64,000 nucleotides of DNA from Treponema sp. (lineage in GTDB: Bacteria; Spirochaetota; Spirochaetia; Treponematales; Breznakiellaceae), in assembly GCA_031265435.1 (NCBI GenBank), contig JAISCR010000023.1:8799-72798 (forward strand), read 5' to 3'. The notes below the pieces were generated by a model. It saw only the letters and a program-made list of their open reading frames with translations, was not told the origin of the DNA and made no database searches. Positions 4,545 to 35,829 of this stretch are shown one piece after another (the first letter of the stretch is position 1; each line of letters opens with the position of its first letter). A program made the position numbers and the translations under genes.

Positions 4545-4556
4545 CGGGAGGTTTTG

Positions 4557-5828: not shown

Positions 5829-5838
5829 GGGGTAAAAC

Positions 5839-7525: not shown

Positions 7526-7539
7526 CAGAGGAACTGTAT

Positions 7540-8028: not shown

Positions 8029-8029
8029 C

Positions 8030-11109: not shown

Positions 11110-11961
11110 CTAACGGGCATTCCGAACCAGCCTTATCCCGATGTATTCGCCTATGCTTTCATATTCCGGATAAATATCTTTTCCGTACTGAAGATAGCTT
11201 TCATCCATCCGGAAATACCATCCCCGTATTACCCTGCAAATTTCTTCTTCGTCTCTTTCCCCTGCCCATCTCCCCATGGGTACCGCATATCTCCCGCTAA
11301 ATAATTTAAGTTCTCCCTCAATTCCGTAACTGCTGTAACTTCCCGGTACAACATAAGGATTCCAGCACCATTCCGATACGTTTCCGAACATATCATATAT
11401 CCCCAGTTCATTCGGTTTTTTCTGGCCCACGGGTCTTGATCTTTCTATATCATCAATATTCTTAAAGTACCACGCAACCTCGTCCAGATTATTGGAACCG
11501 GGATACTTATAGCCCTTCGACAATTTCCCTCCCCGCGCCGCCCAGCCCCACTCGGCCGAGGTAGGCACCCTGTAACCATTTGCCCTTCTATTCCATTCAA
11601 TTTTGGTACCTTTAATTGTATATGCCGGCTGTAGATTATGATGCCCGCTCAGCCAGTTGGCAAACTGTACCGCCTGATAAAAATCAATGTTTATCATGGC
11701 GCTGTCTTCGTCCATTATCATTTCACTGGCGTTACCATCATAATACCTGTACTCATCAAAATCATATTTCTCTCCGGACAGTTCCAGATACTTCCTGTAT
11801 TCCCCTACGGTCAGCTCATAGCGGAACATATAGAAATCGTTTACGCCTTTTCCGTTTCCCTCAACATATACCTCTCCGGGACTCAGAACCGCGTAACTTT
11901 CCGGAAAAACATTGGCCGAAATCATCAAAACCAAAGCAAAAATCAGCTTTTTCATTTTCAT
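11110..11961 (-). CDS. secreted FGE-sulfatase/SUMF1-domain protein
   Basis: 283 aa. Signal peptide MKMKKLIFALVLMISANVF. GYRVPTSAEWGWAARGG, MFGNVSEWCW, RVIRGWYF and IGIRLVRN match FGE/SUMF1-fold motifs. GGAGGAG-type SD upstream. Confidence 0.85.
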   Translation of the reverse strand: MKMKKLIFALVLMISANVFPESYAVLSPGEVYVEGNGKGVNDFYMFRYELTVGEYRKYLELSGEKYDFDEYRYYDGNASEMIMDEDSAMINIDFYQAVQFANWLSGHHNLQPAYTIKGTKIEWNRRANGYRVPTSAEWGWAARGGKLSKGYKYPGSNNLDEVAWYFKNIDDIERSRPVGQKKPNELGIYDMFGNVSEWCWNPYVVPGSYSSYGIEGELKLFSGRYAVPMGRWAGERDEEEICRVIRGWYFRMDESYLQYGKDIYPEYESIGEYIGIRLVRNAR

Positions 11962-11971: not shown

Positions 11972-14900
11972 TTATTTTATTAGCGGACGAATTCCACTCG
12001 GAAAATATTTATCTTTCCATGTACTTCCGATACCGTCCGGCCACGGGTCATAGATCTTTTTATTCTTGTTGTCAACCAGCAGAAAATGTGTTGATCTTTT
12101 TTTCTCCGAAATATTCCATTCCCCATTTTTTTCGTACACCATGATTCCGTATTCATAATCTGAATTAAAAAATTCAGTTACGTCGGTCATGGTTGTACCA
12201 TAGTTCCACTCTTCCCCACCTTTTTTACCATAAACCGCCGTGTTCATTGCCGCAATGAATTTTTTAAGACTAAGAACACTTGCGCTATTATTCGTTTTGG
12301 TCTTATCGATGCCTCCATTTTCCATTGCGCCCCTGACTCCTTCAAGCATTCTGGATCGGGATATTGAAATAGGAGCTGTGAGCTGGTACAGAAGATAGAT
12401 TGTATAGACAAGGCATGTATTATTTTCTTTCAACCCTGTAACTGCACCTAATGTTTTTTGATTATTTTTTCCGGGCTTTGCTGGGACATCCACATATAAT
12501 TCTCTTGCTTTTTTCAACTGCTTTTCACCTTCCGCTTCCTCCGCTTCTCTTTTAATCTTTTTCTGTTCATTTTCAATTCTCTCGGCTTCCTTTTTTTCCA
12601 GTTCGCTTTTATCCAATTCCGGCTCTTTCAGCACCGGCTCTTTTAGTTCAGGCTCTTTCAATTCCGGCTCTTTCAGTTCGAGCGTTTCATGTACAGGTTC
12701 TTCTTCGGCTTCACTTCTTTCAAGCAACGCGGCAACTTTCTCTTCGATGTCAGGTTCCGGAGGCGTTTCATGTACGGATTCTTCTTCGGCTTCACTTCTT
12801 TCAAGCAATGCGTCGACTCTCTCTTCGATATCAGACTCTGGATCGAGCTCCGGTTCCAGTTCTTCTTCCGGGTATAGCGGACGATCTATGTTAATCTCTT
12901 CTTGCCTGTTGATGCCGCTAATCAGATTTACCAATGAGCGGATACCCGCGTTCAGGATCTGCGTCCCCAGCATGCTTACATCAACTCCGTCGGAGCCGAA
13001 TTTCATGAGGGGGCCGTCATCGCCAAGATGGAGTTCCAGCAAACCCATTTCGCGCAGTCCGGGGATGAGGCCCGCGTTTAAGAGGTTGAATGTAAAGTCG
13101 CCGGTATATGCATAGTCAATCAACTCGCCTGTTGAACCGGCAATGAAGTTGTTCAGGTTGCTCCCGTCTATTCCCAAAGCATTATACAGTCCCCCCGCAT
13201 AAGAATTAAGGATTCCCCCGGTAAAAGCGGAAGCCATACCGCTCAGCATGCCGGTTCCCAGGCCGCTTACGCCCTGATTGAAGACATCGTTTGAGAATGT
13301 TAATCCGGTCCCCGTATACTGTATGGCGTTCACCATACTTGCATAAGTTCCGCTCAGGGCGCTTTCCATACCACTGAGAACACCAATGCTTAAGGAGCGT
13401 CCTATACCGCCGGATGCCGACGCGCTTACCAGGCCCTTGATGCCTCCTCCTCCCGTTGCTGTTCCAAATGTTCCCCCAATACCGGGGAGTCCGTTAAAGG
13501 CGCCGCTTATTAAATTGGTTCCCAGGGAAACGGCGAATGTTTTTGAATAATCAAAGAGGGCCGTATCCGCCGCCTTGTAACCTCCGCCAACGTCCATAAC
13601 GGAAAAGATGAAATCATCGGCGGTTTCCACCGCGGCTACAGTGAAAGCCATGGCAGCAAGGCCCATGCTTGATCCGCCTGACACAGGGCTTAATGCAAGA
13701 GCGGCGGTAGTGGCGGCTACCTTGCCGACAACATCCGCGGTTTCACGTATCGTGAATGCCTTGAATACACTGTTTCTGTCATCCCAAACCGGCTTATCCC
13801 AAAAGGCGGCGTTTACCATGGCAATACCTTTCCCTTCCTTTACCCGCCACCAGGTATAGTCCGTCATAAGCCTGCCAAGTTCGCCTCTTCCCTGATCCCA
13901 GAACATGGCCTCTTTTGAACCGGTATCGGAAGTGCGGAACAGAGGTTCGTATCCGATATGCTCCCCGAATTTTCCCGGATCCTGGACACGTTTCAATTCT
14001 TCAACATCAAATACACCGTCACCTGAGATCGCGTGTATGTTTCCGTAGCTATCCGCCAGGTTTTCGTCAACCATGACCCTCGTCATCATATAGTAAAACA
14101 TCTTATCCTTCTCCGTTATAATGAAGCGGACTATCTCCTTTCCTCCTTCTCCGCTCCTGCCGAAATGTTTTTCCATCTCCCTCTTAATCTCATCTTCTAT
14201 ATTCCTGATCAGGCCCTGGATCGCCAGATAGTTTAAGCCGTTAAGGGCGCTTGCGCTTGTATCGGTCTTTAATTCAAACGGATCCACGATGTAATCCCTG
14301 TATGCCTTCACTTCCGCGTATTCGGATTCTGTTTTTGTAAGTGAAGAATAAACAACCACATCCTTGGAATATGTACCGTCGGCAAGGCTCCATAGATTGT
14401 CAATGGCAAACATCCGGTGTATGTTCTTCCTGAAGCTGTTATTGGCCTTATCTATGTTTTCCGCTAATTGTTTACTGCTTTTTTCGGCCGCTTCTTTGAC
14501 TTCCTGAAGAAGACGTTTTGCTTCAAGCTCCGCGGTTTTTTCATTTGCCTCTCTGGCAAACTGTCTTGCCGCGCTTTGAATTATTCCCGTATTCCACGAA
14601 GAAGGGCCTCCCAGCCCCTTTTGAACATGAGCGGCTATGGTTCCCGTTACGCCGTTAATTGCCGCAAAAGCCCTGCCTGTATTGGCAATGCCAGCCAGCG
14701 ACATGATTTCGTCCATTACGAAACTGATGTCCTCGCCTGAGTATACCCGTATCAACATCGGATCGCGGGTATCTATTTTCCGGGCGCCGGCTTCCGCGTC
14801 CTCTCCCAACAGGGCGAGCGCGGCTCCGGACAGGGCATTATTCGCCGCTTCTTCGGCCTGTTTCAGCCATGCTTCCTTGTCTTCAAGGCCTTCAAGATAT

Positions 14901-17900
14901 GCCTCGTTCCATTCCTCCCCGATGCGTTCATACTCGGCAAGAAATTTCCTGTTCCACTCGTTATAGGCAGTCTTCATCTTTTCCGATCCTGAGATCCAAT
15001 CCTCCCTTCCCCGTTGGATGAGCAGAGCGACATCTTCCTGCCATTGACTCAACTTTGAAACCAGATCCCTGCGCTGTTCCTGCCAAACGGCTTCACGGGC
15101 GCTCAGTTCTGCCTGATAACGTCCAGCATAAACCCTTTCCAGTATGTCCCCCATTTCACCAAGAAGAAGGCCGTATTCGTTCCTGTAATTTCTGCCGCCT
15201 GTCAGCATTGTTTCTATGTCGTTCCTGATTACTTGGTCGAGGTTTTCAAGATGGTTCTTCAGGGCCGCCGCGTTTTTACCAAAGACTTTTTCCATATCAC
15301 TTTTCAAATCCGGCAGGCTTATGGCGCCGTTCATGTAGGCTTCTAAACTTTGATGATACTTTCCTTCCGCCTCCAGGCGTTTTGCCTGATCATCGCCGTA
15401 CTTTTTTTCGAGAGCCCGTTTTGAATCTTCTTTCTCGGCCTTTATCCAGCGGTTAACTGCCTGCAGGGCTTCCAGGACGCTGGAATATGTTTCCCCCGAA
15501 TCCAGAAGCATCCTGTTCCAGATATTTAGTACGATATTTATATCAAATTCGGCTATGTTTCCGGCGAGGCTGAGGGAATAAAGAATATCCGCCGCTCTTA
15601 CAAAATCGCCGTCTTTCTTTTCACCTTTAAGGCCGGCCAGACGTTCACATGATGAAAAATAGAGCGCATAGGCGCTGTTCATATCCGTTATGGAAGAATT
15701 GAGCGACTCCATGGCCTGGTTGATCTGATTGTTGGTATAGTCCAGGGGAACCCTGAGATCGTTGACCACGTTGTTAAGCCTGTTTGCAATGGGCTGCCAA
15801 TACGCGGGACCGATTAACCAGATGCCCGTCCTGTCGTTTGCATATTTCAGATGACCCGACGCCCTTTCGTAGACTTCCCTGTATTTTAGATAAGAGGTAG
15901 CTTTCCTGAAACCTTCCAGCGCATCGGCGTCACTTCCGCCGCTTCCGTTCATGGTAAGGATAAGATAAAACATCAGGTTTTCCTGTTCCTCGGCGCTTAA
16001 GCTTTCCCAGGCGCTCCTGCTTGCTGTAATAAACTTTGTCCAATAGGCGATATATTCACCCACATACTCGGCATAGTAGGCGTTTTGATATTCGGCCATG
16101 TTATGCTGACCCAGAAATGTACCGCTTTTAATATTATCCGCATCATCATAGTACGCCTTGAGGAAAGTTATATCTGTATTTGAAGAGTCAATATAAATAG
16201 GAACATTAATCATATATCGAAAATCGCCATAGGGGAAATCCCTAACCGCATGATGTTCATTGGTCAAACAGGCAACAAGAAAATCCCTGGCCAGGGCAAA
16301 GCGTTCGTACTTATTCCGATTCAATTCCATTGACAGAAAAAAAGCCTCAAGGTTTCTCAGGCCAAGTTCAAAACCGGTTGCCTCATTCGTTTCATTGCCG
16401 ATAATTTGTCCATCGTTAAAATAGGCGGCAAGCAGGGCGCTGTTTTTATAATCCGTTCCCTGCAGGCGGAAGCCGCTTTCAAAATTAAAGACAAGTTTTC
16501 CGTCTTTTACGGTAATGATATCCTGTATTCCCCAGGCGGATTTATCGGCGGGAGAAACATAGCTGTAATCATTCTTTTCATATAGAAACAGATCTCCGCC
16601 GAAAGCTTTCAGTGTGGACATATAATCCATATAATATCCGGCATTAACGATCGTTTCGTTTGCTATTGCCTCTTCCAGCCGGTCAATCGTATTAAGGGCA
16701 GCAAGCATATTGGAAAATTCTTCCCTGTATTTTTGATACAGGTTTTCGTATTCGGCGTCATCATAGGGACGGCGTTCGGCATTGTCGTCATAAAGGGATT
16801 CAAGTGCCGCGAGAGCCGCCTCCGCCCTCATAAGATGCTCAACGGAGCGGGACAGTTCTTCGAGTTCATCCTCTACTCCAAGATAGGCCGTGGCGGCCCA
16901 GCGGTTAACGGCATCCTTTTTTTCGTAGGAAAGTCTTGAGTCTTCCATCTTCTCAAAAAGCTCCTTGGACTGGGCATACAGATTATCATAGTTCTCACCG
17001 GAAAGCAAGAATGATTGGGCGTTATTATCGTATTCTATACTGAGAGCCTCTATCTCGTTTGCATGATCTTCCATTTGCTTCATCATCTTCTTGATTTCTT
17101 CGGCAAGACTTGTGTTTTGATTTCTTATGATGTCCAGCATGGAGGCGACGATTGCAATGTCTCTCCGGTATATTTCCTCGTATGAAAAGAGTTTTTTATA
17201 CTCCCGTTTTTCATAACTGTAGTTTTCGACAAGAAGATACCGCGTCTCCTTTATGTTATTTTCATCCCAGGCCAGTTTTGTATTGTTGATATAGGCATCG
17301 GCGATTGCAATAAAATCACCGTTCAGGGCTTCGGCCGCCTCTGTATTGCAGACGGCAAATGCGGCGTTTAACAGCATGGTAATCCGGCCGATTTTTTCTT
17401 TTGCGTCGATGAGGAGTCCCTCAGGATAGGAAAAGGCCGTGACGATTCCCGGATTATCCGTCCCGGTATTTTCTTCGGTGATGTATTCCCGCCAGTGTTT
17501 TTTATTATCACTCCCGTCACGGTACACAGCCTCCCGCATTGTCTCATAGGCGCCGAGCAGCAATAAGCTGTTATTGAGGATCCTGTATTCTCTATCAAGT
17601 TCCAGGCATGCCTCGTTGAATTCATCAAAAGCCTGCTTTCCCCTGAACGAAAGTCCTTCATATATAAGTGTGATGGCATCCATTTTCCCGGTGGTTTCTT
17701 CAAGTTTGTGTGCAATATCCTCCCGTGTCCACGCGGGGCCGACCGAAGCGTTAATCATCCCGGCCGCCGCGAGATCGATGAGGGCCGACTTCCATTCTTC
17801 AATCTCCTGACCGATCCATGACGGAATCTGATTCAGGGAACGATCAAAACGGCAGAGAAATTCCGTTAACGCCTCTTCGGTTTTGAGAGGATCATCCAGA

Positions 17901-20890
17901 AAATACCGTACAAGTTTATCGGCAGAGGGAAGGTATCCCTCACCGGCTTCAATGTTCATGGATTCAAAGAGCAGTTTTAATTCCGCGGTACTTTTGTTCC
18001 ATGACATCTTCCTGCCCGCGTCGCTCATGAACGCGATTGACTGGTAGATCTCAAACAGTCCCTGCCGGTAGTAATATGAACCAATCTCGTTACGAACAAA
18101 GGCTTCCGTTCCGTAGAACAAATTCTCTCCGGCCAAAAAACGGCGGATCGTTTCATTCTCATCGGCAAGCTCGGTAATTCCCCTTTCATCGTTGTCATGT
18201 ATTGCCTGTATCAGGGTATTCAGGTCTTCCATAAGTCCGCCAATGAAAACGGTATCCGCAGGATCGCCTGAATAAAACGCCGAAAGAAATTCCGCTTCTT
18301 CGTTATCAGCCTCAATGTCAAGCAGACAGCCCAGGGCATCGTATTCAAGTTCAGCCCTGGCCTCTATCCACGAAAGGCGGCTTTGTTCGGCTTTGATGTA
18401 ACAGTCTTCCACGGAAAACGAATTCGCCAGGAGCAGTTTAAGCCCTTCGATACGGATCTCAAGGGCGGCATCGGCCTCGGTCTTTGCCAGAGCCGTAAAA
18501 CCCGCAATAAGGACATTATAGGCGGCGGCGTCTGCGGGATTCTCATCCCTGAGGCGGAAAAGATATGAAATCGTTTCGTACCGGGGATTATCTTCTTTAA
18601 TGCCCGTTGCCGCAATCGAAACGGGAACGGAAGCAGCATCAAAAACCTTGACGGCATCCGCTTCTCCCTGCAGGGTTTCAAGGCTTTTCCCTCCGTCTCC
18701 CAGGACAAGTATCTTCAAGGCGGCGCCCAGAGTTTCAAGTTCCTGCGCTCCGCTCAGTTCAATTGCCCGTTCAAGATAATTGATATACGACGCATCCGCA
18801 CCGTTCCTGTCCAGCTGCCCCGCGGTTTCAAGAAGTTTTTTGTATTCATTCTTGAGCTGTTCTTCGATAATATCCGTCCGGTTGGTCCTGTATGCGCCGA
18901 GCAATACCGAATACGCCTGGTTGAGTTCCTCAAGGCGGGCCTCGGCCACGGCAAGTTTTTTGGAAGATTCAAGAAGTTTTTTTTGCGCGTCCAAAACATC
19001 AAGGCCCGCGACGGATAATTCCGCCTGAATCTTCTCATAGGCTTCGATAGCTTCATGATAGTCCTTTTTTGCCGTTTCAAAGGCTTCTATGCCTTCGGCC
19101 TCGGTAATTCTTCCGGAACTTAGATCCTCGGCATAATTCAGCACCGCCCTGGTTATTTCCGTCCGTCTTTCCCAATACGATGCGACCGCCCTGGCCTTTA
19201 TAAGCTCGATCTGGTATTCATCAAGATTAAAATCCTCGCTGTTTACGCCTTCGTCAAGAATATCCTTCAGGGCTCCCGAACCCATGGTCAGGGCAAAATC
19301 TTCCGCCAGCGCGTTCCTGGATTCAAGGGCCCGTGCATAATATGAAGTAAAGAGTTTCCACCATTCATAAATTATCTGAAATGTTTCATACTTTGCCGCG
19401 TGCTTTTGCTTGTTGGATATTTCCTCAAATATGTCTTTGCCATCATCATCTCTCCCGATTACAACATGTGTTGTCTCTTCATAGAATTGTTCTTCGTTGT
19501 TTATCCATACAGGAAAATAACTTGAAAATATATCCGGCACGCCGCCGTATCTTTGTCCCCAGAATCTTACATTCTCCCTGGCGCCTGTCAATACCTGGGA
19601 TGAGGTAATATAGATATCCACATAGGCTTTGGCCTTTGAGGCTCCCGCGTCGATCCGTTTTTGCGCGTCCTGGGCAAATTCGACTTTAGCTTCGGCGATA
19701 GCCTTTTCAAGAGTCTGTGAAGCTTCCTTGAAAAGCAGTTCTCCGGTTTTGAGGAGTTCGTCCGTTTCTTTTTCCCATTTCAGTCTGGAGATCTCAAACT
19801 GCCTGAAGGCTTCGCTCCATTCTTCGTTGCCGGTATCGTAGCGTTCATTCGCGTCTCTTTGCCATTCGAGGCGTCGGACAAGGAAACGTTCCTCCGCTTC
19901 GGTCCACGCGTTGAGTCCCCGTTCAAACTGAACGCGGTACTGTTCAAGCCATTCCTCTCCGGCGAGTACCAGATCTCCGGTTCCCGCTTCCGCGGCGTCA
20001 ATACGGCTTTTCAGCGCGTTTATTCCTTCATCGCATATTGCCTGTGCCGCACCGATTAGTTCCGCCGTAATTTCGGTTGCGGCCTTGTCTTCACTCTTCC
20101 TGCGGAGGCTGTAGTAATCCCCTGTACGCCGGGCAAGAAACAGACGTTCCTCCCTGGAGGCAAGTTCCTCGAATTCCTTCCTCAGGCTGAATTTTTTTTC
20201 CGTAAGCGCAGCCTTGATATTTTGTTCCAGGCCGCTCCTCTTGTCTTCGCCAATGTAACACAGTACCTCGGGTATCATGTAGAGAATGGATTCCTGATAT
20301 GCCTCCTCCCCGCCGTCAAGGGCCGTCCGGACTTCATCCTTCCAAAGATAACGGTCGCTTTCAATTTCCCGTCCTGCCTCCCACGGCCTTACAGGTTCGG
20401 GATCTCCCGAGGCGGGATCAAAGATGACATTCCCGTCTTCATCGAGATGCCAGGTATAATGTATCTGGGCAGCGTCCAGACTCTGTGACAAGTGATCGAG
20501 AATACCGGCCTTTATAAAGAACCGTTCAAAGAGCCATTGGGTAAAACGTCTCTCCAGTTCATCCTCAGTCCAGTCCTTAAGGAGGTTTTTTGCTTCCGCA
20601 AAGAGAAGCGGATCATCATAAAACTCGCATGCGAGTTTTTCCCATGATTCGGAGGCAAGGCTTATGCCTCTCTCCGCGGCCTGCATCCAGGCTTCGGGAC
20701 TCGTTTCCATATCCGCCGTACTGAAATGGTAATCAAACACCGGCTGGTTAAAACCCCTGACATCAGGTTTTGTCTGGGCAAACAGACAGAGAGTCAAAGA
20801 AAACAGATACACCTTTATGAAGATGTTCCTTACGGTACGAGAAGAAAGAGTGAGCATACATGGCCCCGAATCTTGATACCCGCCCTGCAC
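11972..20890 (-). CDS. giant secreted protein (2,972 aa), function unknown
   Basis: Uninterrupted 8.9-kb ORF. Hydrophobic N-terminal signal (IFIKVYLFSLTLCLFAQ). The start is uncertain: GTG 20890 or ATG 20857. It has a long E/K/A/L-rich region, a Gly-rich hydrophobic segment, acidic repeats and a C-terminal Cys/His/Asp domain. Confidence 0.85.
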   Translation of the reverse strand: MQGGYQDSGPCMLTLSSRTVRNIFIKVYLFSLTLCLFAQTKPDVRGFNQPVFDYHFSTADMETSPEAWMQAAERGISLASESWEKLACEFYDDPLLFAEAKNLLKDWTEDELERRFTQWLFERFFIKAGILDHLSQSLDAAQIHYTWHLDEDGNVIFDPASGDPEPVRPWEAGREIESDRYLWKDEVRTALDGGEEAYQESILYMIPEVLCYIGEDKRSGLEQNIKAALTEKKFSLRKEFEELASREERLFLARRTGDYYSLRRKSEDKAATEITAELIGAAQAICDEGINALKSRIDAAEAGTGDLVLAGEEWLEQYRVQFERGLNAWTEAEERFLVRRLEWQRDANERYDTGNEEWSEAFRQFEISRLKWEKETDELLKTGELLFKEASQTLEKAIAEAKVEFAQDAQKRIDAGASKAKAYVDIYITSSQVLTGARENVRFWGQRYGGVPDIFSSYFPVWINNEEQFYEETTHVVIGRDDDGKDIFEEISNKQKHAAKYETFQIIYEWWKLFTSYYARALESRNALAEDFALTMGSGALKDILDEGVNSEDFNLDEYQIELIKARAVASYWERRTEITRAVLNYAEDLSSGRITEAEGIEAFETAKKDYHEAIEAYEKIQAELSVAGLDVLDAQKKLLESSKKLAVAEARLEELNQAYSVLLGAYRTNRTDIIEEQLKNEYKKLLETAGQLDRNGADASYINYLERAIELSGAQELETLGAALKILVLGDGGKSLETLQGEADAVKVFDAASVPVSIAATGIKEDNPRYETISYLFRLRDENPADAAAYNVLIAGFTALAKTEADAALEIRIEGLKLLLANSFSVEDCYIKAEQSRLSWIEARAELEYDALGCLLDIEADNEEAEFLSAFYSGDPADTVFIGGLMEDLNTLIQAIHDNDERGITELADENETIRRFLAGENLFYGTEAFVRNEIGSYYYRQGLFEIYQSIAFMSDAGRKMSWNKSTAELKLLFESMNIEAGEGYLPSADKLVRYFLDDPLKTEEALTEFLCRFDRSLNQIPSWIGQEIEEWKSALIDLAAAGMINASVGPAWTREDIAHKLEETTGKMDAITLIYEGLSFRGKQAFDEFNEACLELDREYRILNNSLLLLGAYETMREAVYRDGSDNKKHWREYITEENTGTDNPGIVTAFSYPEGLLIDAKEKIGRITMLLNAAFAVCNTEAAEALNGDFIAIADAYINNTKLAWDENNIKETRYLLVENYSYEKREYKKLFSYEEIYRRDIAIVASMLDIIRNQNTSLAEEIKKMMKQMEDHANEIEALSIEYDNNAQSFLLSGENYDNLYAQSKELFEKMEDSRLSYEKKDAVNRWAATAYLGVEDELEELSRSVEHLMRAEAALAALESLYDDNAERRPYDDAEYENLYQKYREEFSNMLAALNTIDRLEEAIANETIVNAGYYMDYMSTLKAFGGDLFLYEKNDYSYVSPADKSAWGIQDIITVKDGKLVFNFESGFRLQGTDYKNSALLAAYFNDGQIIGNETNEATGFELGLRNLEAFFLSMELNRNKYERFALARDFLVACLTNEHHAVRDFPYGDFRYMINVPIYIDSSNTDITFLKAYYDDADNIKSGTFLGQHNMAEYQNAYYAEYVGEYIAYWTKFITASRSAWESLSAEEQENLMFYLILTMNGSGGSDADALEGFRKATSYLKYREVYERASGHLKYANDRTGIWLIGPAYWQPIANRLNNVVNDLRVPLDYTNNQINQAMESLNSSITDMNSAYALYFSSCERLAGLKGEKKDGDFVRAADILYSLSLAGNIAEFDINIVLNIWNRMLLDSGETYSSVLEALQAVNRWIKAEKEDSKRALEKKYGDDQAKRLEAEGKYHQSLEAYMNGAISLPDLKSDMEKVFGKNAAALKNHLENLDQVIRNDIETMLTGGRNYRNEYGLLLGEMGDILERVYAGRYQAELSAREAVWQEQRRDLVSKLSQWQEDVALLIQRGREDWISGSEKMKTAYNEWNRKFLAEYERIGEEWNEAYLEGLEDKEAWLKQAEEAANNALSGAALALLGEDAEAGARKIDTRDPMLIRVYSGEDISFVMDEIMSLAGIANTGRAFAAINGVTGTIAAHVQKGLGGPSSWNTGIIQSAARQFAREANEKTAELEAKRLLQEVKEAAEKSSKQLAENIDKANNSFRKNIHRMFAIDNLWSLADGTYSKDVVVYSSLTKTESEYAEVKAYRDYIVDPFELKTDTSASALNGLNYLAIQGLIRNIEDEIKREMEKHFGRSGEGGKEIVRFIITEKDKMFYYMMTRVMVDENLADSYGNIHAISGDGVFDVEELKRVQDPGKFGEHIGYEPLFRTSDTGSKEAMFWDQGRGELGRLMTDYTWWRVKEGKGIAMVNAAFWDKPVWDDRNSVFKAFTIRETADVVGKVAATTAALALSPVSGGSSMGLAAMAFTVAAVETADDFIFSVMDVGGGYKAADTALFDYSKTFAVSLGTNLISGAFNGLPGIGGTFGTATGGGGIKGLVSASASGGIGRSLSIGVLSGMESALSGTYASMVNAIQYTGTGLTFSNDVFNQGVSGLGTGMLSGMASAFTGGILNSYAGGLYNALGIDGSNLNNFIAGSTGELIDYAYTGDFTFNLLNAGLIPGLREMGLLELHLGDDGPLMKFGSDGVDVSMLGTQILNAGIRSLVNLISGINRQEEINIDRPLYPEEELEPELDPESDIEERVDALLERSEAEEESVHETPPEPDIEEKVAALLERSEAEEEPVHETLELKEPELKEPELKEPVLKEPELDKSELEKKEAERIENEQKKIKREAEEAEGEKQLKKARELYVDVPAKPGKNNQKTLGAVTGLKENNTCLVYTIYLLYQLTAPISISRSRMLEGVRGAMENGGIDKTKTNNSASVLSLKKFIAAMNTAVYGKKGGEEWNYGTTMTDVTEFFNSDYEYGIMVYEKNGEWNISEKKRSTHFLLVDNKNKKIYDPWPDGIGSTWKDKYFPSGIRPLIK
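12616..12683 (-). repeat. in-frame 15-nt tandem repeat (about 4 units) encoding (L/V)KEPE
   Basis: Units ggctctttcaNNNNN at 12621, 12636, 12651 and 12666. The protein reads LKEPELKEPELKEPVLKEPEL. Confidence 0.85.
12684..12845 (-). repeat. in-frame 81-nt tandem duplication (2 units, 27 aa each)
   Basis: Units start at 12684 and 12765 (gtttcatgtac...). The protein reads SDIEERVDALLERSEAEEESVHETPPE / PDIEEKVAALLERSEAEEEPVHETLEL. Confidence 0.85.
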
Positions 20891-20939: not shown

Positions 20940-23900
20940 TTACAAATCATTTTTTGCAATTCTTTTTTCAAACAAAATAAACAGCGCCGGCACCAGGGTA
21001 ATGGAACAGATAAATGAAGAGAGCACACCCCAGAAAATAACCAGCGACAGGATCTGTACCAAATTCCCCGGTTCTCCGGCGCTGAAAAACAGGGGGAATG
21101 CTCCGGCCATGGTGGTACCGGCGGTGGCTAAAAGGAGCGGCGACTTTGATCTGAGGATAAAGTACATGCCCGTGGAAGAAAGCCGCTTCCCGCGGGGCAG
21201 GGAAGCCAGGGCGTCCGCGACAAGAACCGCGGCATTCACCGCGACTCCCGACAGCGCTATAAATGATGCGGCCGCCGCTTCATTCAGCGGCTTCCCGAGG
21301 ATCAGGAGAATCAATAACGGCAATGCCAGGGAAGGAGGAATCACCGGCAGGATGACAAACGGAGCCTTGAGGGACTCGCTGGACGCGGCTATGACCATGG
21401 AACAGAAAAGCAGGGCAAGAAGAAACCACAGTATCGTCCCGGAAAGATTTTCAGCCTGTTTTATGGCATCCTGATCGAAGACAATGCTGTAAGCGGGAGG
21501 AAGTTCCATTCTATCGAAGAGAGGCATGATCGACTTCCGCAGCCGCCTCGGATCAAGCGGCCCCGTGCGGATCGTAAATGAAGCGCTGCGGCGTCTTCCC
21601 TGCCTTTCAATGGCGCTGCCTTCCCGGCTTTCTGTAACCTTCATGAGAGAATCAACCCTGACCGGGTATGCATCTTTAAGTGTCAGCGGAATGGAAAAGA
21701 CTTTTTCTTTGTCCGGAATACCGGCTCCCAGGACACGGACGTCTACCTCTCCGGAATCCTCAAGACGTTTATAGGCGACAGGACCGTGAACATTCCGGCG
21801 TATCGTGTCCGCCGCAGGATAGAACCACGCTCCGGCTTCACGGAAACGTTCCCTGTCGGGGTAAAGATCGATACGGCCGCCGCCGTCTTTGAAGTTGAGT
21901 ACCGTTTCTCTTACGAGTCCCGACGATGCCGAAAGCCCGGCGGCCTCACGGGCAAATTTTCTGCAGAGGGATGAATCGTCCCCGAAGACACTGATAGTCC
22001 AGTTCCTTTCCCCGCTTCCTGTTTCCGGAAAATAGATAAAGGCCCCGTTTATACCGATGCGTCTGATTTCCTTCTTTAAGTCTTCAGGTTTTTCCTTTTC
22101 AGGATCAAAATTGATGAGCAGGGAACCCGAACCGGAACGGGCGGAACTCTGAATATGTTTTACCGCGGAATTTTCTTTCAGCTTCACGGAAAATATTCCC
22201 ATGAGTCTGTCCGCTTCTTCCGCGCGGAAACCCCCTTCAAATTCTATATGGGCATAGATGGAACCGGGACTTTCATTTCCCCCCGGATCAGGCCGGATGA
22301 ATCCAAGGGCCAGTATGCCGCCCCCGCTGAGTATCAAGGCCGCGGCAACATAAAGCACGGGAAACCGCAGTACCAATCCTGAGGAAAAAGCCAGCGCTCT
22401 TAAACTTCTGCGTTTTATAAAACGGAGGAACGCTAAAAGTTTTTGTCGTACAGGCAGAGCCATACCCCGTCCCCGGGAATGACGGGAATCATTGTTCAGG
22501 ATTCCGCGATGAGACGCGGCAGCCTCTCCGTGCTTTCCGCCCCTGAATATGAATGGAGGCAGAATACTGAAAGAGGCAAGCAGGGCGATAAGTGTGACCG
22601 TTCCGGATCCCCAGGCAAGAGTTCTGCACTCTTCACCGATATCCATAAGGACAAGGGGTATGAGTGCGGCGATTGTAGTACATGATGATGAAATGAGCGG
22701 AGGCGCCAGGGAACCCAGTACCCTTAAACCTTCCGCCGCCGTTTCCGCTCTCCTCAGTTCCCACGCAAGTATGATGACCGCGTCAACTGCCGCCCCAAGT
22801 CCTGATGCTATGCCCGAGAGGAGAGGTCTGTCCGGAGAAAAGCCAAAGAAAACGAGGAGGCCCAAAGAAAAAACAGAGATGAGGGGCACGGAAAGAAAAA
22901 CCGCCGGAGATACTTTTCCTCCGGGCATCATAAGAAAAGTCATCAATGAAACCGCCAGGGCTCCCTCAAGGGCCGCCAGTATAAGGGATCTGAAAGCCTT
23001 CGTTTCCTCCTCTCCCCGATCGAGCAATACCTGAAAATCAAGAGGCAGATCTTTAATGGCTTCCAGTTCCCTCTTTATTTCACGGGAAAGTTTACCGAGC
23101 TTCGCCCCCGACGCGGGCATGATCATGATGCCTGCGGCCCTCTCTCCGTCGAGCCTGGAATAATTATCAGGTTCCCTTTCTCCTTCACGGATCTCCGCGA
23201 TATCTTCAAGATTGATACGGACTCCATTGATATCGAAAGACGCTTTTTTGAGGTCTTCAAGTTTACGGTAACGGCCGTCAAGAACCAGAAGGGTCTTGCG
23301 GTTTTCGCTTTCAATCCGGCCTGCGGGCAGAATGAGATCGCTGCCGGCAAGGGAAGACGCCAGATCCAGGGGTCTGATTCCCAGGGACGCGGAACGTTCG
23401 GGATCCAGGGCGACACGGATCTCCCGGTTCGCGATTCCCGAAAGCTCCACTTCCCCGGCTCCGGCAAGGGCTTCAAAGCGCGGTTTTACAAAACGTTCAA
23501 GCGTTTCGGATAGGTTTCCGTTATTCGTTCCCGCTTCCCCGCGTGAAAACACAGCCGCGGACCAGACGGGAATACGCGAGTTGCTTGACGAAAGGATCTC
23601 GGGCCGCTGTACCGATCTGGGCAAAGTTTCATACACTTCTTCTACCGCATCCCGGACAGCCTCATAACGCCCGTAAGAAGCAAAGTCAGGATCGAAGCGA
23701 AGGAAGGCCCTCACTCTTCCGTTTTCACTGGTACTGGTAATATGGAGAAGTCCCGGCAGAGGCGCCAGGGCATCCTCCAGAGGAATGGCGATGCTTCGTT
23801 CCATTTCCTCCGCGTCGACTCCGTAGTGTCTGAAGGTGAGGGTGTAGGAAGAGGCGTCGTATTCCTTCCGGTTATCCCTCATGGCAAGAAGGGCAACGGA

Positions 23901-23969
23901 AACGGAGGCGGCCATCATCAGGATACAGAAGGCGGCATGTTTTCTTTCAAGCCAGGAATTTGTTTTCAC
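20940..23969 (-). CDS. RND efflux permease (AcrB-like), paralog 2
   Basis: 1,009 aa. An N-terminal TM helix, then a large soluble loop, then TM clusters in a duplicated RND layout. The GTG start abuts the stop of the upstream RND gene. Confidence 0.88.
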   Translation of the reverse strand: MKTNSWLERKHAAFCILMMAASVSVALLAMRDNRKEYDASSYTLTFRHYGVDAEEMERSIAIPLEDALAPLPGLLHITSTSENGRVRAFLRFDPDFASYGRYEAVRDAVEEVYETLPRSVQRPEILSSSNSRIPVWSAAVFSRGEAGTNNGNLSETLERFVKPRFEALAGAGEVELSGIANREIRVALDPERSASLGIRPLDLASSLAGSDLILPAGRIESENRKTLLVLDGRYRKLEDLKKASFDINGVRINLEDIAEIREGEREPDNYSRLDGERAAGIMIMPASGAKLGKLSREIKRELEAIKDLPLDFQVLLDRGEEETKAFRSLILAALEGALAVSLMTFLMMPGGKVSPAVFLSVPLISVFSLGLLVFFGFSPDRPLLSGIASGLGAAVDAVIILAWELRRAETAAEGLRVLGSLAPPLISSSCTTIAALIPLVLMDIGEECRTLAWGSGTVTLIALLASFSILPPFIFRGGKHGEAAASHRGILNNDSRHSRGRGMALPVRQKLLAFLRFIKRRSLRALAFSSGLVLRFPVLYVAAALILSGGGILALGFIRPDPGGNESPGSIYAHIEFEGGFRAEEADRLMGIFSVKLKENSAVKHIQSSARSGSGSLLINFDPEKEKPEDLKKEIRRIGINGAFIYFPETGSGERNWTISVFGDDSSLCRKFAREAAGLSASSGLVRETVLNFKDGGGRIDLYPDRERFREAGAWFYPAADTIRRNVHGPVAYKRLEDSGEVDVRVLGAGIPDKEKVFSIPLTLKDAYPVRVDSLMKVTESREGSAIERQGRRRSASFTIRTGPLDPRRLRKSIMPLFDRMELPPAYSIVFDQDAIKQAENLSGTILWFLLALLFCSMVIAASSESLKAPFVILPVIPPSLALPLLILLILGKPLNEAAAASFIALSGVAVNAAVLVADALASLPRGKRLSSTGMYFILRSKSPLLLATAGTTMAGAFPLFFSAGEPGNLVQILSLVIFWGVLSSFICSITLVPALFILFEKRIAKNDL

Positions 23970-26900: not shown

Positions 26901-26975
26901 GGCAACGAGAAGAGCGCAGAGCATCATAATAACTGCCACAGGCCGGCCCGCAAAGGCGCTTATCAATCCCTTCAT
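23970..26975 (-). CDS. RND efflux permease (AcrB-like), paralog 1
   Basis: 1,001 aa. RND layout. The TM4-like segment GIGLVSDSAVIVLE is comparable to AcrB GLLVDDAIVVVE. Confidence 0.9.
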   Translation of the reverse strand: MKGLISAFAGRPVAVIMMLCALLVAAVFFASGLPLEQLPGLALNRVTVKTSWPGMGAQEIRSLLTIPVEDALSPVKGLENMRSVSRDNFSLIILDFRWGIDGAAAAVLVREAVDAVWPSLPEGVDKPAVSSGTVENEPFCIIAVQSRHGDGNFARNLAEYELKARLRRLGGIGQVILLGGDEMEELVEADVRQLAVRGITVSSLAELLSSETMNMPAGMAREGDRELVVVSSGQPGSAEELASLSLSGAGGPFRLSDAAAVSLRKAEKKSLFILNGEEAAALKIYRRPGSDPSRLSGEIGKLLEEARENFGDDGEFFLVYDSSSLISGALNNLLVSAALGVFAVVFSLCFFIRHPRSSFLAALAIPVSTAAGLCAIAVRGTSLNSMSLGGLALGIGLVSDSAVIVLEVLHRRFGTNAAAPSAGETGEAASTVMLSGAASLLTTAVVFVPILFLPGPLGALFGDLSIALVVSITAGWIYAQFCLPSLYRLCFKTCGDTSSRRLEEFYEKFLRLATSNFLRMILLAALLVGAGIFILVSRPRHFVSPDEERELRLSVLFPPGYMLESMPEKGRKLTLLLGGLPGIRGVFAYAGAEDEDLMRLSESGYREEELIFHCSISPGTKSQEARDEVRRLLENYSEGEINVFFPQNNVEKLLGLSESRVMAVRGRNPEETMLRAKELAGFLREKLGEGTEIILDPSHSRPEFRIYPDREASAQLGIQAADLAGLLHSITDGMTTGQLEGGGRPIPVRLKGKMEDDPLGAAASLQNIPIALGEGNSAFLGSLCRIERLESPETLSRLNRSDVVYVSVKDAPGNVMNDLLKSGGAWNLIRSDESVFTRYRQSLIITLVLVILLLYLVMGAQFESFFLPLVLMFSIPFSLAGAGPALFLSGASIDSGAVLGLAVLFGLSVNNAIILYEIGMEKLDGIMRAEEAFRNGAVERFRAISITTITTVFALLPMVCFPMGASQRSMAAAMLGGITASTLLCLFVMPHVLSVLVRRKI

Positions 26976-32652: not shown

Positions 32653-33152
32653 CTGTTCTTCTCCAGAGACCTGATTCCCCGTCCGACAGCAAGCCTGATT
32701 ATTTTCCCCAGTGTCTTTGATGAAGCAAGACTCTCTTCTCCGGTACAGACCACCCGGCTTGCGGAGACGGGCATTAACGCGCCGGCAGGAGAAGCGGCAG
32801 AGATACTGCCGGGCCGGAAACACAGATCCGCCGCAATGGATCGCTTTGTCTTCCAGCCTGAGATATACTCCCTTTCCCGGAGTATCATATCCACCAGATA
32901 ATCCCCGTCCTCGTCCTCTCCGACAGGAGAGTAGCCTTTTTCCCGCAGATACATAAAAACCAGTCCCCTTGCCTCCTCCTCCAGGGATGAGGTTCCACCG
33001 GTTCTGTCAACGGTAATTTCCCGCAGTTTTACCCTTCCCTTGACATAATTACTGCCGGGCCAGGACCGGATACTGTACCGTGAGGGGAGAGAGGTTCCGC
33101 AGGAAACAAGAAACACCGTCACGGCCAAAACCAAAAAAATCTTTTTCTTCAT
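32649..33152 (-). CDS. small hypothetical lipoprotein
   Basis: 167 aa. MKKKIFLVLAVTVFLVSCG lipobox signal. ATGA overlap with the upstream gene. Confidence 0.6.
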   Translation of the reverse strand: MKKKIFLVLAVTVFLVSCGTSLPSRYSIRSWPGSNYVKGRVKLREITVDRTGGTSSLEEEARGLVFMYLREKGYSPVGEDEDGDYLVDMILREREYISGWKTKRSIAADLCFRPGSISAASPAGALMPVSASRVVCTGEESLASSKTLGKIIRLAVGRGIRSLEKNR

Positions 33153-35576: not shown

Positions 35577-35713
35577 TTTGAAGAATTTTTTACCTCTAAG
35601 TCAAATAAGTCGAAGAAGTATAAAAAGCAAGAAGGGAAAAAAGAAGCGCTTCATACTCCGCTTGATGAACTTTCTCGACTTTTTCGACTTGGTGGTGAAT
35701 TTTTTCTTCAAAG
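35577..35713. repeat. dispersed inverted-repeat element, copy A (full length)
   Basis: The left arm tttgaagaattttttacctctaagtcaaataagtcgaagaag (35577-35618) is imperfectly complementary to the right arm tttctcgactttttcgacttggtggtgaattttttcttcaaag (35671-35713). Confidence 0.7.
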
Positions 35714-35829
35714 TGTGCTGCTTTGGGGGGAATTTTGATGCTGAAAAAAATAAACGCCGATGCCCTGCCCCTGTACCCCTTGACAGGGATTTTTTTCATT
35801 GTATCATAAACCGGGAACGTATTGCGAAG

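What the first reader, a model, noticed from the sequence alone, without database searches (positions are those of the whole stretch)
11972..20890. 2,972-aa secreted giant protein with a modular toxin- or adhesin-like architecture at the end of the RND array
**Seen in the sequence**
This is a single uninterrupted 8.9-kb ORF on the minus strand with these parts:
- an N-terminal hydrophobic signal;
- about 2,300 residues rich in E/K/A/L/Y/W with no obvious enzymatic motif, predicted to be mostly helical;
- a Gly/Ser/Ala-rich hydrophobic segment of about 260 residues;
- an acidic repeat linker;
- a C-terminal domain of about 175 residues containing one Cys and one His.

Spot GC counts are lower than in the neighbours. 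The lines at 12121 and 16201 have 18 and 23 G+C of 60, against 33 of 60 at 10681 in accA.

**Inference**
- The N-terminal delivery or scaffold region followed by a C-terminal effector is reminiscent of polymorphic toxins and giant surface proteins.
- It may belong to the very long spirochaete-specific protein family I recall as TIGR04388. I cannot verify that here.
Basis: partly seen in the sequence, partly recalled or inferred. Interest (0 to 1): 0.7.

Follow-up and report, generated by a model that had tools for sequence, protein, structure and literature searches.

The report
Giant swappable-tip toxin-like Treponema protein
This 2,972-residue exported protein belongs to an undescribed family in termite-gut Treponema: a conserved 2,640-residue body carries an interchangeable cell-wall-cutting tip, usually followed by a matching exported gene, which is the layout of bacterial competition toxins, and the gene ends a conserved pump-like envelope operon.

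Summary
The start is more likely the ATG at 20857, giving 2,961 aa. No Pfam, NCBIfam (TIGR04388 included), PHROG, PADLOC or PDB-sequence match exists for the body.

More than 165 homologues of 2.8-3.9 kaa exist. All named ones are Treponema or Spirochaetia, mostly from termite guts. Homology covers residues 1 to about 2640, then breaks sharply. After the break there are at least 10 unrelated C-terminal types:
- M23 metallopeptidases
- M15 metallopeptidases
- four Cys-His families
- two unknown types

Bodies 82-84% identical carry different tips, and the same tip sits on bodies 30% identical.

The tip in this window is very rare (6 clusters among 1.84 billion representatives). It has invariant Cys2826, His2935 and Asp2948 and models as a papain-like alpha+beta fold. 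It is hypervariable between close relatives and has GC 0.39 against about 0.53 nearby. It always co-occurs with the downstream FGE-like exported protein, a domain already shown to act as a T6SS immunity protein.

The gene closes a conserved operon: lipoproteins, TolC-like, adaptor, two Big_5, two divergent RND.

Best reading: a new family of polymorphic peptidoglycan-hydrolase toxins. Export through the RND-type system is only inferred.

The parts
11972..20890 (-). Giant ORF: 2,972 codons from the GTG, with a likely true start at the ATG at 20855-20857 (2,961 aa). Stop codon at 11972-11974.
   Evidence: Homologues.
20777..20857 (-). Sec-type signal peptide, residues 12-38 (MLTLSSRTVRNIFIKVYLFSLTLCLFA|Q). 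The predicted cleavage follows the family-conserved F-A-Q motif.
   Evidence: The only hydrophobic window with KD >= 1.5. Consensus 'FAQ' in the alignments of 20 and 63 sequences. Heuristic only; SignalP was not available.
13751..20776 (-). Conserved body, residues 39-2380. It has no known domain, many invariant W/Y/G/R positions, and is mostly helical where modelled.
12971..13750 (-). Gly/Ser/Ala/Thr-rich amphipathic segment, residues 2381-2640. It is conserved in the whole family and ends at the homology break. Proposed membrane-interacting or translocation segment (inferred).
   Evidence: Composition. Conservation and the break at about 2640-2665. A weak tape-measure PHROG hit over the equivalent region of P0005 only.
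12524..12970 (-). Acidic repeat linker, residues 2641-2789 (E 29%). It contains tandem repeats at 12617-12679 (15 bp x 4.2, LKEPE) and 12682-12868 (81 bp x about 2). In this clade it replaces the roughly 200-aa 'HE' domain found in most family members.
11975..12523 (-). C-terminal effector-like domain, residues 2790-2972. It is a rare Cys-His-Asp alpha+beta domain, hypervariable at residues 2776-2900, with GC 0.388.
12413..12415 (-). Codon of Cys2826, invariant, at the N-terminus of a predicted helix. Putative nucleophile.
12086..12088 (-). Codon of His2935, invariant, on a predicted beta-strand. Putative general base.
12047..12049 (-). Codon of Asp2948, invariant, in the motif D-P/S-W-P-x-G-I. 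Putative third triad member.
11110..11961 (-). Downstream gene: a 283-aa exported FGE-sulfatase-fold protein starting 11 bases after the giant gene's stop codon. Candidate cognate immunity or inhibitor protein.
   Evidence: Pfam PF03781, E = 1.8e-27. Found downstream only where the tip is of this type, including locus L003 whose body is about 31-45% identical. FGE-like proteins are published T6SS immunity proteins.
20940..23969 (-). RND permease paralogue 2, adjacent to the giant gene with a 49-nt gap to the GTG. Very divergent: 194 bits against an NCBIfam cut-off of 1250.
23970..26975 (-). RND permease paralogue 1: 381 bits against a cut-off of 1250.
26981..30054 (-). Two Big_5 (Ig-like) lipoproteins, at 26981-28495 and 28492-30054. 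For the second, the lipoprotein signal begins near 29928.
29912..32823 (-). RND-type periplasmic adaptor (29912-31267) and TolC-like outer-membrane factor (31264-32823).
32649..34806 (-). Three upstream lipoprotein genes (167 aa; 224 aa with TPR; 335 aa). These positions hold genes of matching size, and a TPR hit at the same position, at the head of the operon in L073 and L074; the 167-aa gene has no counterpart called in L074. Direct sequence homology was not tested.

Best explanation
The ORF encodes a member of a previously undescribed family of polymorphic, peptidoglycan-targeting toxins of termite-gut Treponema.

**Shown.**
- A Sec signal peptide leads a roughly 2,600-residue body that is conserved across the family.
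- The body ends in a conserved Gly/Ser-rich segment.
- A C-terminal enzymatic tip has been exchanged repeatedly among at least 10 unrelated types: M23, M15, several Cys-His hydrolase types, and two unknown.
- The tip is often followed by a small exported protein or lipoprotein gene that travels with the tip type.
- In this window the tip is a rare Cys2826-His2935-Asp2948 domain. Its partner is an exported FGE-fold protein.
- This clade has replaced the family's usual 'HE' pre-tip domain with an acidic repeat linker.

**Inferred.**
- The body is a delivery or presentation scaffold.
- The Gly/Ser-rich segment helps the tip cross a membrane.
- The tip cleaves peptide bonds of a competitor's cell wall.
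- The FGE-like protein blocks the tip in the producer's own periplasm.
- The conserved upstream operon (lipoproteins, TolC-like channel, adaptor, two Big_5 lipoproteins, two divergent RND permeases) takes the Sec-exported protein from the periplasm to the cell surface or beyond.
For: **Family and break.** More than 165 homologues are alignable over residues 1 to about 2640, and coverage falls from about 115 of 120 sequences to 3 of 120 after about 2650.

**Tip types.** There are 6-13 BLAST-unrelated clusters depending on the sequence set. Motif analysis gives M23 HxxxD...HxH in types 1, 5 and 8 (42 proteins), M15_4 in 2 proteins, invariant Cys/His(/Asn or Asp) in types 2, 3, 4 and 6 (60 proteins), and 5 proteins unknown. 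Pfam confirms M23 and M15_4.

**Swapping.** Bodies 82-84% identical over the last 740 residues carry different tip types. The same type occurs on bodies 30% identical.

**Close relatives.** Against relatives 83-85% identical overall, identity is 75-98% per 100-residue window along the body. It drops to 24-48% at residues 2776-2900 and recovers to 64-76% at the end.

**Composition.** Tip GC 0.388 (GC3 0.368) against 0.46-0.53 in the body and 0.52-0.55 in neighbouring genes.

**Downstream gene travels with the tip.** Among locus pairs with bodies under 60% identical, 7 pairs share both tip and downstream protein, 0 share only the downstream protein, 34 share only the tip, and 665 share neither. 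Fisher p = 1.3e-9, though the pairs are not independent and represent about 3 cassette lineages.
- The FGE-like gene is found only next to this tip type: the window plus L001, L003 and L006.
- 29 of 44 loci have a signal-bearing ORF starting within -90 to +200 bases of the stop, 18 of them with a lipobox.

**Precedent.** FGE-domain proteins are experimentally shown T6SS immunity proteins: Tsi3, bioRxiv 10.1101/2021.05.21.445229.

**Tip chemistry.** C37, H146 and D159 of the domain are invariant in 8 sequences. The AF2 model (pLDDT 80, pTM 0.79) puts Cys at a helix N-terminus and His on a strand. The top Foldseek ranks are all papain-like or NlpC/P60 proteins.

**Operon linkage.** The adaptor, Big_5, Big_5, RND, RND block lies directly upstream in about 40 of roughly 50 loci that have enough upstream flank. 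The giant gene was directly downstream in both look-ups seeded from RND2 homologues; in L074 it is called as two ORFs. Gaps range from -4 to 95 bases.
Against: - No experiment supports toxicity, immunity or secretion.
- About a third of loci have no obvious exported gene downstream. For example, ETF genes follow directly in L002, L023 and L032.
- Tips of the M23 type are followed by unrelated exported proteins.
- The recognisable tip repertoire is confined to cell-wall-hydrolase-like enzymes. There are no nucleases or deaminases, which would also fit a housekeeping wall-cutting role.
- The FGE-like protein is 87% identical between the window and L001, whereas the tips are only 48-49% identical. 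The supposed partners are therefore not co-diverging in that pair.
- No orphan tip or immunity cassettes lie downstream in the window.
- The fold assignment of the tip is not statistically significant: best Foldseek E = 0.12 with TM <= 0.38.
- The body is usually single-copy and embedded in a conserved operon, which is more typical of core envelope machinery.
- RND pumps are not known to move proteins.
Confidence: 0.52

Rival explanations
1. **Envelope-machine subunit with a built-in wall cutter.** The giant protein stays in the producer's periplasm as a scaffold or spacer of the lipoprotein, TolC-like, adaptor, Big_5 and RND complex. Its C-terminal hydrolase opens the producer's own peptidoglycan locally so the machine can assemble, as FlgJ and VirB1 do for flagella and type IV secretion. 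The downstream exported protein is a dedicated regulator or inhibitor.
For: - The operon is conserved across the family, with short or overlapping gene junctions.
- All recognisable tips are peptidoglycan-hydrolase classes.
- The body is strongly conserved, with many invariant residues.
- A third of loci have no immunity-like gene.
- Machine-associated lytic enzymes are known to undergo non-orthologous replacement (my own knowledge).
Against: - It does not explain tip exchange between bodies 82-84% identical.
- It does not explain the hypervariable stretch within the tip among close relatives or the low-GC cassette.
- It does not explain why a tip-specific exported partner, of a fold already used as an immunity protein, should travel with the tip.
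- About 8-10 loci carry the giant gene without the RND block upstream.
- Tripartite RND pumps assemble without dedicated lytic enzymes in model bacteria (my own knowledge).
Confidence: 0.27
2. **Giant surface or periplasmic structural protein or adhesin.** The C-terminal domain merely anchors the protein to peptidoglycan or is catalytically dead.
For: - The protein is large and mostly helical, with a signal peptide and acidic repeats.
Against: - No adhesin repeats or domains were found.
- Catalytic-type residues are invariant in each tip family: HxxxD...HxH, and Cys/His/Asp or Asn. This argues for active enzymes.
- Tip swapping and linked partner genes are not expected for an anchor.
Confidence: 0.08
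3. **Relic of a mobile element.** A phage tape-measure-like or conjugation-associated lytic protein that became fixed in the chromosome.
For: - Tape-measure proteins combine long helices, Gly-rich hydrophobic segments and M23 or lysozyme domains (my own knowledge).
- One homologue (P0005) has a weak PHROG tape-measure hit, E = 1.5e-4.
Against: - The window protein has no PHROG hit.
- No phage, conjugation or integrase genes lie in the flanks of the window or of the loci whose gene lists were inspected (about 15 loci).
- The N-terminal Sec signal and the conserved chromosomal operon do not fit.
- There is no structural match among viral models.
Confidence: 0.03

Closest known systems
Polymorphic toxin systems (CdiA, Rhs, MafB, TANFOR and others; Zhang et al. 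2012, PMC3482391)
   Same: - A large exported protein with a conserved N-terminal part.
- A sharp junction followed by unrelated, exchangeable C-terminal enzymatic domains.
- A small downstream gene linked to the tip type.
- Papain-like C/H/D peptidase domains and NlpC/P60 are listed toxin classes.
- A low-GC cassette.
   Different: - None of the known trafficking domains is present: no TPS/FHA, RHS/YD, PAAR, LXG/WXG, MuF or TANFOR (Pfam).
- The recognisable tip repertoire is confined to cell-wall-hydrolase-like enzymes.
- No orphan cassettes.
- Many loci lack an immunity candidate.
- The gene sits at the end of an RND-type operon, which is not a known toxin export context.
T6SS peptidoglycan-hydrolase effectors with periplasmic immunity proteins (Tae/Tai type), and the Tse3-Tsi3 pair of Acinetobacter baumannii with its FGE-like immunity protein (bioRxiv 10.1101/2021.05.21.445229)
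   Same: - Cys-His amidase or peptidase and metallopeptidase effectors act in the periplasm.
- Immunity proteins are exported or lipoproteins encoded next to the effector.
- An FGE-fold protein serves as a non-enzymatic immunity scaffold.
   Different: - No T6SS genes are in the window.
- The effector is fused to a 2,600-residue Sec-exported body rather than loaded on Hcp, VgrG or PAAR.
- The tip shows no detectable sequence similarity to any PDB chain or Pfam family. Specific Tae/Tse families were not compared directly.
Type 1-secreted giant proteins (RTX and MARTX toxins, LapA-like adhesins) with adaptor and TolC
   Same: - A very large protein is encoded next to a membrane-fusion adaptor and a TolC-like channel.
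- A Gly-rich region lies close to the effector part (as in MARTX; my own knowledge).
   Different: - The inner-membrane component is a pair of RND permeases, not an ABC transporter.
- The protein has an N-terminal Sec signal.
- No RTX repeats were found. A C-terminal secretion signal was not assessed.
Giant proteins with cell-wall-degrading domains in predatory Omnitrophota (bioRxiv 10.1101/2023.11.21.568195)
   Same: Very long bacterial proteins proposed, per that preprint's title, to take part in cell-wall degradation.
   Different: Different phylum and no detected sequence relationship. Those proteins are much longer, and no polymorphic tip or immunity organisation is known to me for them.
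NlpC/P60, CHAP and other papain-like cysteine peptidases (for the C-terminal domain only)
   Same: - A Cys at a helix N-terminus, a His on a beta-strand, and a third acidic residue 13 positions later.
- The top structural ranks are phytochelatin synthase, staphopain, MepS/Spr and SpvD.
   Different: - No significant sequence or structure match: best E = 0.12, TM <= 0.38.
- The Cys-to-His spacing of 109 residues includes a hypervariable helical insert.

Membership tests
   The NCBIfam release 20 scan of the full protein at E<=1 returned only TIGR02096 (E = 0.015, 15.6 bits against a cut-off of 97.1). There was no TIGR04388 hit. I did not verify that TIGR04388 is included in the release scanned.
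Polymorphic toxin systems | A conserved N-terminal region shared by proteins whose C-terminal domains are unrelated, with a sharp junction | tested here: met
   Coverage is about 115-120 of 120 sequences up to about residue 2600 and 3 of 120 after about 2700. There are at least 10 tip clusters.
Polymorphic toxin systems | Evidence of tip exchange by recombination (tip type discordant with body relatedness) | tested here: met
   Bodies 82-84% identical carry different tip types, and the same type occurs on bodies 30% identical. Identity collapses at residues 2776-2900 against relatives 83-85% identical overall. Tip GC3 is 0.368.
Polymorphic toxin systems | A cognate immunity gene immediately downstream that co-varies with the toxin domain | tested here: inconclusive
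   The downstream protein is homologous only when tips are homologous (7/0/34/665). The FGE-like gene occurs only with this tip type. 29 of 44 loci have an exported ORF at the stop. However, 15 of 44 have none, M23 tips have heterogeneous partners, and immunity function is untested.
Polymorphic toxin systems | The C-terminal domain is toxic to bacteria and is neutralised by the partner | not testable with these tools
   This needs expression and competition experiments.
CdiA/CdiB contact-dependent inhibition (T5SS) | TPS secretion domain and FHA repeats in the toxin; CdiB (POTRA plus ShlB-type barrel) encoded nearby | tested here: not met
   No such Pfam domains are in the protein or in the ten neighbouring genes scanned.
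Rhs/YD-repeat toxins | RHS/YD repeats forming a shell, and a PAAR or VgrG association | tested here: not met
   No RHS, YD or PAAR hit.
Type 1 secretion substrates (RTX, MARTX, LapA-like) | An ABC transporter partner, RTX nonapeptide repeats or a C-terminal signal, and no N-terminal signal peptide | tested here: not met
   The operon has RND permeases instead of an ABC transporter. There is no RTX hit. An N-terminal signal peptide is present.
Phage tape-measure proteins | A match to tape-measure families and a location in a tail gene module | tested here: not met
   The window protein has no PHROG hit at E<=0.1 apart from a chance 22-residue match. Only P0005 has a weak hit, E = 1.5e-4. No phage genes are in the flanks.
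Papain-like / NlpC-P60 cysteine peptidases (C-terminal domain) | A catalytic Cys at the N-terminus of a helix, a His on a following beta-strand, and a third polar residue on the next strand | tested here: met
   C37, H146 and D159 are invariant in 8 sequences. The AF2 model (pLDDT 80) has helix 37-49 and strand 145-151, with D159 just after strand 156-158.
Papain-like / NlpC-P60 cysteine peptidases (C-terminal domain) | Significant sequence-profile or structural similarity to a member | tested here: inconclusive
   Pfam, PDB-sequence and PDB-profile searches found nothing. The top Foldseek ranks are papain-like proteins, but E >= 0.12 and TM <= 0.38.
FGE-like T6SS immunity proteins (Tsi3 family), for the downstream gene | An FGE-sulfatase domain protein, exported, encoded next to its effector | tested here: met
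   PF03781, E = 1.8e-27. It has an N-terminal signal sequence, with a lipobox in the L003 homologue. The gene starts 11 bases after the giant gene's stop codon.
FGE-like T6SS immunity proteins (Tsi3 family), for the downstream gene | Binds and neutralises the cognate effector; associated with a T6SS | not tested
   No T6SS genes are in the window. Direct homology to Tsi3 was not compared, and binding needs experiments.
Tripartite RND efflux pumps (upstream operon) | RND permease, periplasmic adaptor and outer-membrane factor scoring above the family cut-offs | tested here: inconclusive
   The adaptor passes TIGR01730 (149.6 against 94.9). Both permeases hit ACR_tran in Pfam but fall far below every NCBIfam RND cut-off (381 and 194 bits against 1250). 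The OMF is below the TolC cut-off (92.6 against 225).

The most novel reading that the evidence does not exclude
The conserved operon is a dedicated and so far undescribed protein export or presentation pathway. Its parts are three lipoproteins, a TolC-like channel, an adaptor, two Big_5 lipoproteins and two highly divergent RND permeases. On this reading, a Sec-exported polymorphic wall-hydrolase toxin of about 330 kDa is picked up in the periplasm and pushed through or onto the outer membrane by a proton-motive-force-driven RND pair. That would be a new secretion route for interbacterial weapons in spirochaetes.
Probability: 0.18. Interest if true: 0.9.

Novelty: new variant of a known kind. 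Interest (0 to 1): 0.68.

Why it matters
Termite hindguts hold dozens of coexisting Treponema lineages, and how they compete is essentially unknown. No interbacterial toxin delivery system has, to my knowledge, been characterised in spirochaetes.

- **A candidate weapon.** This family has more than 165 members, a 2,640-residue body with no known domain, and a full set of exchangeable wall-cutting tips with linked partner genes. The hypothesis is directly testable.
- **New enzyme families.** The family defines at least four uncharacterised Cys-His hydrolase families and a new 'HE' domain.
- **FGE fold as immunity scaffold.** It extends the use of the FGE fold as a probable immunity scaffold outside T6SS.
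- **Annotation.** Database names such as 'M23 family metallopeptidase' or 'hypothetical protein' hide the common architecture.
- **Unusual operon linkage.** The tight link to an atypical RND-type operon raises the possibility that RND-type machines handle protein cargo.

Tried and rejected
- **Family scans of the whole protein.** NCBIfam and Pfam gave no real hit, and TIGR04388 was absent. PHROGs and PADLOC gave nothing for the window protein.
- **PDB sequence and profile searches.** Nothing for the body alignment, the tip or the HE domain.
- **AF2 of residues 1901-2972 with 27 sequences.** Mean pLDDT was 49. The model was unusable, and its Foldseek run was meaningless, as expected.
- **Foldseek of the good tip model.** No significant match against PDB or BFVD.
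- **Exact look-ups.** The window protein and P0121 are not on record, so the source contig could not be retrieved.
- **Word-indexed search with the tip.** It found only 2 proteins. The exhaustive search was needed.
- **Literature.** Searches for Treponema or termite plus polymorphic toxin, and for Treponema plus RND plus Big_5, found nothing on this family.
- **Readings considered and rejected.** CdiA, Rhs, RTX, tape-measure and conjugation-lysin readings all failed for lack of defining domains or context.
- **HE domain as a releasing zincin peptidase.** Left open. H and E are invariant, but most members have HExxR rather than HExxH, and there is no database match. The domain is absent from the window protein.


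Full report
**1. Observation**

The window holds one uninterrupted ORF at 11972..20890 on the minus strand, 2,972 codons from a GTG.
- P0003, a homologue 83% identical, aligns from query residue 12. The family N-terminal consensus (M-x6-K ... FAQ) fits a start at the ATG at 20855-20857, giving 2,961 aa.
- The only strongly hydrophobic 19-residue window is residues 20-38. Arg residues precede it and the conserved F-A|Q follows it, which is a Sec-type signal by heuristic.
  - body, residues 46-2380: E 11.3, A 11.0, L 9.8, Y 5.1, W 1.9%
  - Gly/Ser/Ala/Thr-rich segment, residues 2381-2640: G 18.5%
  - acidic linker, residues 2641-2790: E 29%
  - C-terminal domain with one Cys (2826) and one His (2935)
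- The linker contains 15-bp and 81-bp tandem repeats at 12617-12868.
- GC is 0.480 for the gene against 0.515-0.547 for its neighbours. The C-terminal domain is the real outlier at 0.388 (GC3 0.368), and the downstream gene is at 0.447.
- The ORF is intact in three related MAGs and full length in more than 100 homologues.

**2. No known family**

- The whole protein has no credible hit in NCBIfam (TIGR04388 not matched), Pfam, PHROGs or PADLOC.
- A 20-sequence profile finds nothing among PDB sequences.

**3. A large, taxonomically narrow family with a sharp break**

- A search of 5.8 billion clusters returned 165 proteins at E <= 0.001, with the top 120 at 2.3-3.9 kaa. All named ones are Treponema or Spirochaetia.
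- A scan of one genome per GTDB species found 104 relatives. Nearly all of the 67 loci kept are termite-gut Treponema or Spirochaetaceae MAGs, plus the isolate Treponema sp. TIM-1.
- BLAST coverage of the query is essentially complete from residue 50 to about 2600 and collapses to 3 of 120 sequences after about 2700.
- The body is genuinely conserved, with dozens of invariant W, Y, G, R, D and E positions in 20 sequences sharing about 30-36% identity.

**4. The C-terminus is polymorphic**

- Most members carry a conserved domain of about 200 aa after the break. It has an invariant His-Glu dyad (HEAYRDG; HExxH in two divergent types) and matches nothing in Pfam or PDB.
- The window's clade lacks this domain and has the acidic repeat linker instead.
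- The terminal 200-260 residues fall into at least 10 BLAST-unrelated types. From Pfam and conserved motifs:

| Type(s) | Proteins | Assignment |
|---|---|---|
| 1, 5, 8 | 42 | M23, HxxxD...HxH |
| 9 | 2 | M15_4 |
| 2, 3, 4, 6 | 60 | invariant Cys and His, plus Asn or Asp |
| 7, 10 | 5 | unknown |

- Tip type is discordant with body relatedness. Bodies 82-84% identical carry different types, and the same type occurs on bodies 30% identical.

**5. The tip in this window (type 6)**

- Rarity. An exhaustive HMMER pass over 1.84 billion representatives found six clusters. All are members or fragments of this giant family.
- Conservation. Eight sequences share invariant Q, K, N-x-T-C, H and D-[PS]-W-P-x-G-I, corresponding to Cys2826, His2935 and Asp2948.
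- Model. AF2 with this alignment gives pLDDT 80 and pTM 0.79. The Cys starts a helix and the His lies on a beta-strand.
- Fold. Foldseek finds no significant match (best E = 0.12). The top ranks are phytochelatin synthase, staphopain, MepS/Spr and SpvD, all papain-like. The fold call is therefore consistent but unproven.
- Variability. Against relatives 83-85% identical overall, identity falls to 24-48% at residues 2776-2900 and returns to 64-76% at the end.

**6. A partner gene travels with the tip**

- The gene starting 11 bases after the giant gene's stop codon (11110-11961) encodes an exported FGE-sulfatase-fold protein (PF03781, E = 1.8e-27).
- Its homologues occur downstream only where the tip is of this type. 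This includes L003, whose body is only about 31% identical overall (44-45% over residues 100-700) yet whose partner fragment is 55% identical.
- Across loci whose bodies are under 60% identical, downstream proteins are homologous only when the tips are: 7 pairs against 0, with 34 tip-only and 665 neither. Fisher p = 1.3e-9, from about three independent cassette lineages.
- In 29 of 44 loci an ORF with a signal peptide starts within -90 to +200 bases of the stop, 18 of them with a lipobox.
- FGE-domain proteins have been shown experimentally to be T6SS immunity proteins (Tsi3; bioRxiv 10.1101/2021.05.21.445229).
- Counter-evidence:
  - 15 of 44 loci have no such gene.
  - M23 tips have heterogeneous partners.
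  - The FGE-like protein is 87% identical between the window and L001, while the tips are 48-49% identical.

**7. Conserved operon**

- In the window the giant gene follows these genes, all on the minus strand with short gaps or overlaps:
  - three lipoproteins, one with TPR repeats
  - a TolC-like factor
  - an RND adaptor
  - two Big_5 lipoproteins
  - two RND permeases
- The adaptor, Big_5, Big_5, RND, RND block lies directly upstream in about 40 of roughly 50 loci with enough flank.
- Two look-ups seeded from RND2 homologues both found the whole operon with the giant gene downstream; in L074 the giant gene is called as two ORFs.
- About 8-10 loci lack the block.
- Both permeases are very divergent: 381 and 194 bits against an NCBIfam cut-off of 1250.

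**8. Interpretation**

- Pointing to a polymorphic toxin whose payload acts on peptidoglycan:
  - the sharp junction
  - exchangeable tips
  - within-clade hypervariability
  - a low-GC cassette
  - tip-linked exported partners
- This is the layout catalogued by Zhang et al. 2012 (PMC3482391), but with a new body and none of the known trafficking domains.
- The main rival is a machine-associated wall cutter for the RND-type complex. It explains the operon and the restriction to wall hydrolases, but not the swapping, the hypervariability or the linked partners.
- Export of the protein by the RND-type system is an inference from gene linkage only.
- I put the toxin reading at about 0.5, the machine-subunit reading at about 0.27, and the remainder on structural or mobile-element readings.

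**9. Novelty**

I found no description of the family in the literature searched. It is best filed as a new variant of polymorphic toxin systems. The body, the HE domain, the four Cys-His tip families (by representative scans) and the RND linkage are all undescribed.

Noticed in passing
window 20940-26975 (-): The two tandem RND permeases score far below every curated NCBIfam RND cut-off (381 and 194 bits against 1250), although both hit Pfam ACR_tran. The one next to the giant gene is the more divergent. Their homologues show the same taxonomic spread and a similar depth of divergence as the giant family.
   Followed up: partly
window 26981-34806 (-): Six of the eight non-permease genes upstream have lipoprotein-type signals (LVSC, LLSC, FSGC and similar): three small lipoproteins (one with TPR), the adaptor and two Big_5 proteins. 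Genes of matching size, and a TPR hit at the same position, occupy these positions in L073 and L074 (the 167-aa gene has no counterpart called in L074). None has an NCBIfam name.
   Followed up: partly
homologue tails (e.g. P0049, P0015, P0019), alignment A5: Most family members carry an extra domain of about 200 aa between the Gly-rich segment and the tip. It has an invariant His-Glu dyad (HEAYRDG; HExxH in two divergent types) and a conserved YDSSxDYW motif, with no Pfam or PDB match. It may be a processing or release peptidase. It is missing in the window's clade, where an acidic repeat linker takes its place.
   Followed up: partly
window 12617-12868; P0121: The JGI copy of this protein (P0121, 229 aa, 100% identical) begins exactly inside the LKEPE tandem repeat. 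This suggests that assemblies break at this repeat, so repeat copy number in the window may be uncertain.
   Followed up: no
loci L059 and L074: In two loci the giant reading frame is split. In L059 the break is at or just after the Gly-rich segment, so the tip is a separate ORF of 564 aa. In L074 the ORFs are 2,219 aa and 538 aa (560 aa from the upstream-most candidate start), and the break is earlier, at or before the Gly-rich segment. This could be a frameshift, a sequencing error or a real two-gene arrangement.
   Followed up: no
loci L011, L027, L031, L052, L053, L060, L068; L030 and L048: Some loci carry the giant gene without the RND block upstream. L011 instead has a TetR-like gene and an 896-aa MMPL/RND-like gene. 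At least one MAG (Emb289P3bin117) has two full copies, each with its own RND block.
   Followed up: partly
window 4554-11107 (+); loci L001, L011, L031, L068: A fatty-acid synthesis cluster (accA, accD, accC, accB and fab genes) converges on the unit. The accA ORF ends 2 bases before the end of the FGE-like ORF. The same cluster lies downstream of the giant gene in several distant loci, including ones without the RND block, so part of the synteny is simply lineage-wide.
   Followed up: partly
P0005 residues 2094-3032: There is a weak PHROG hit to tail length tape-measure protein (phrog_167, E = 1.5e-4) over the Gly-rich segment and tail of one homologue. The window protein has none. The hit is probably compositional.
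   Followed up: partly
window 11110-11961 (-): The best NCBIfam hit of the FGE-like protein is the T9SS ring lipoprotein PorK/GldK (58.6 bits against a cut-off of 350). It shares the fold and nothing more.
   Followed up: no
window 35578-40477 (+): Diverging from the operon, by sequence appearance only, are an AraC-type regulator gene and a sugar ABC transporter (ATPase, permease, binding protein). They are unrelated to the finding and were not scanned against any library.
   Followed up: no
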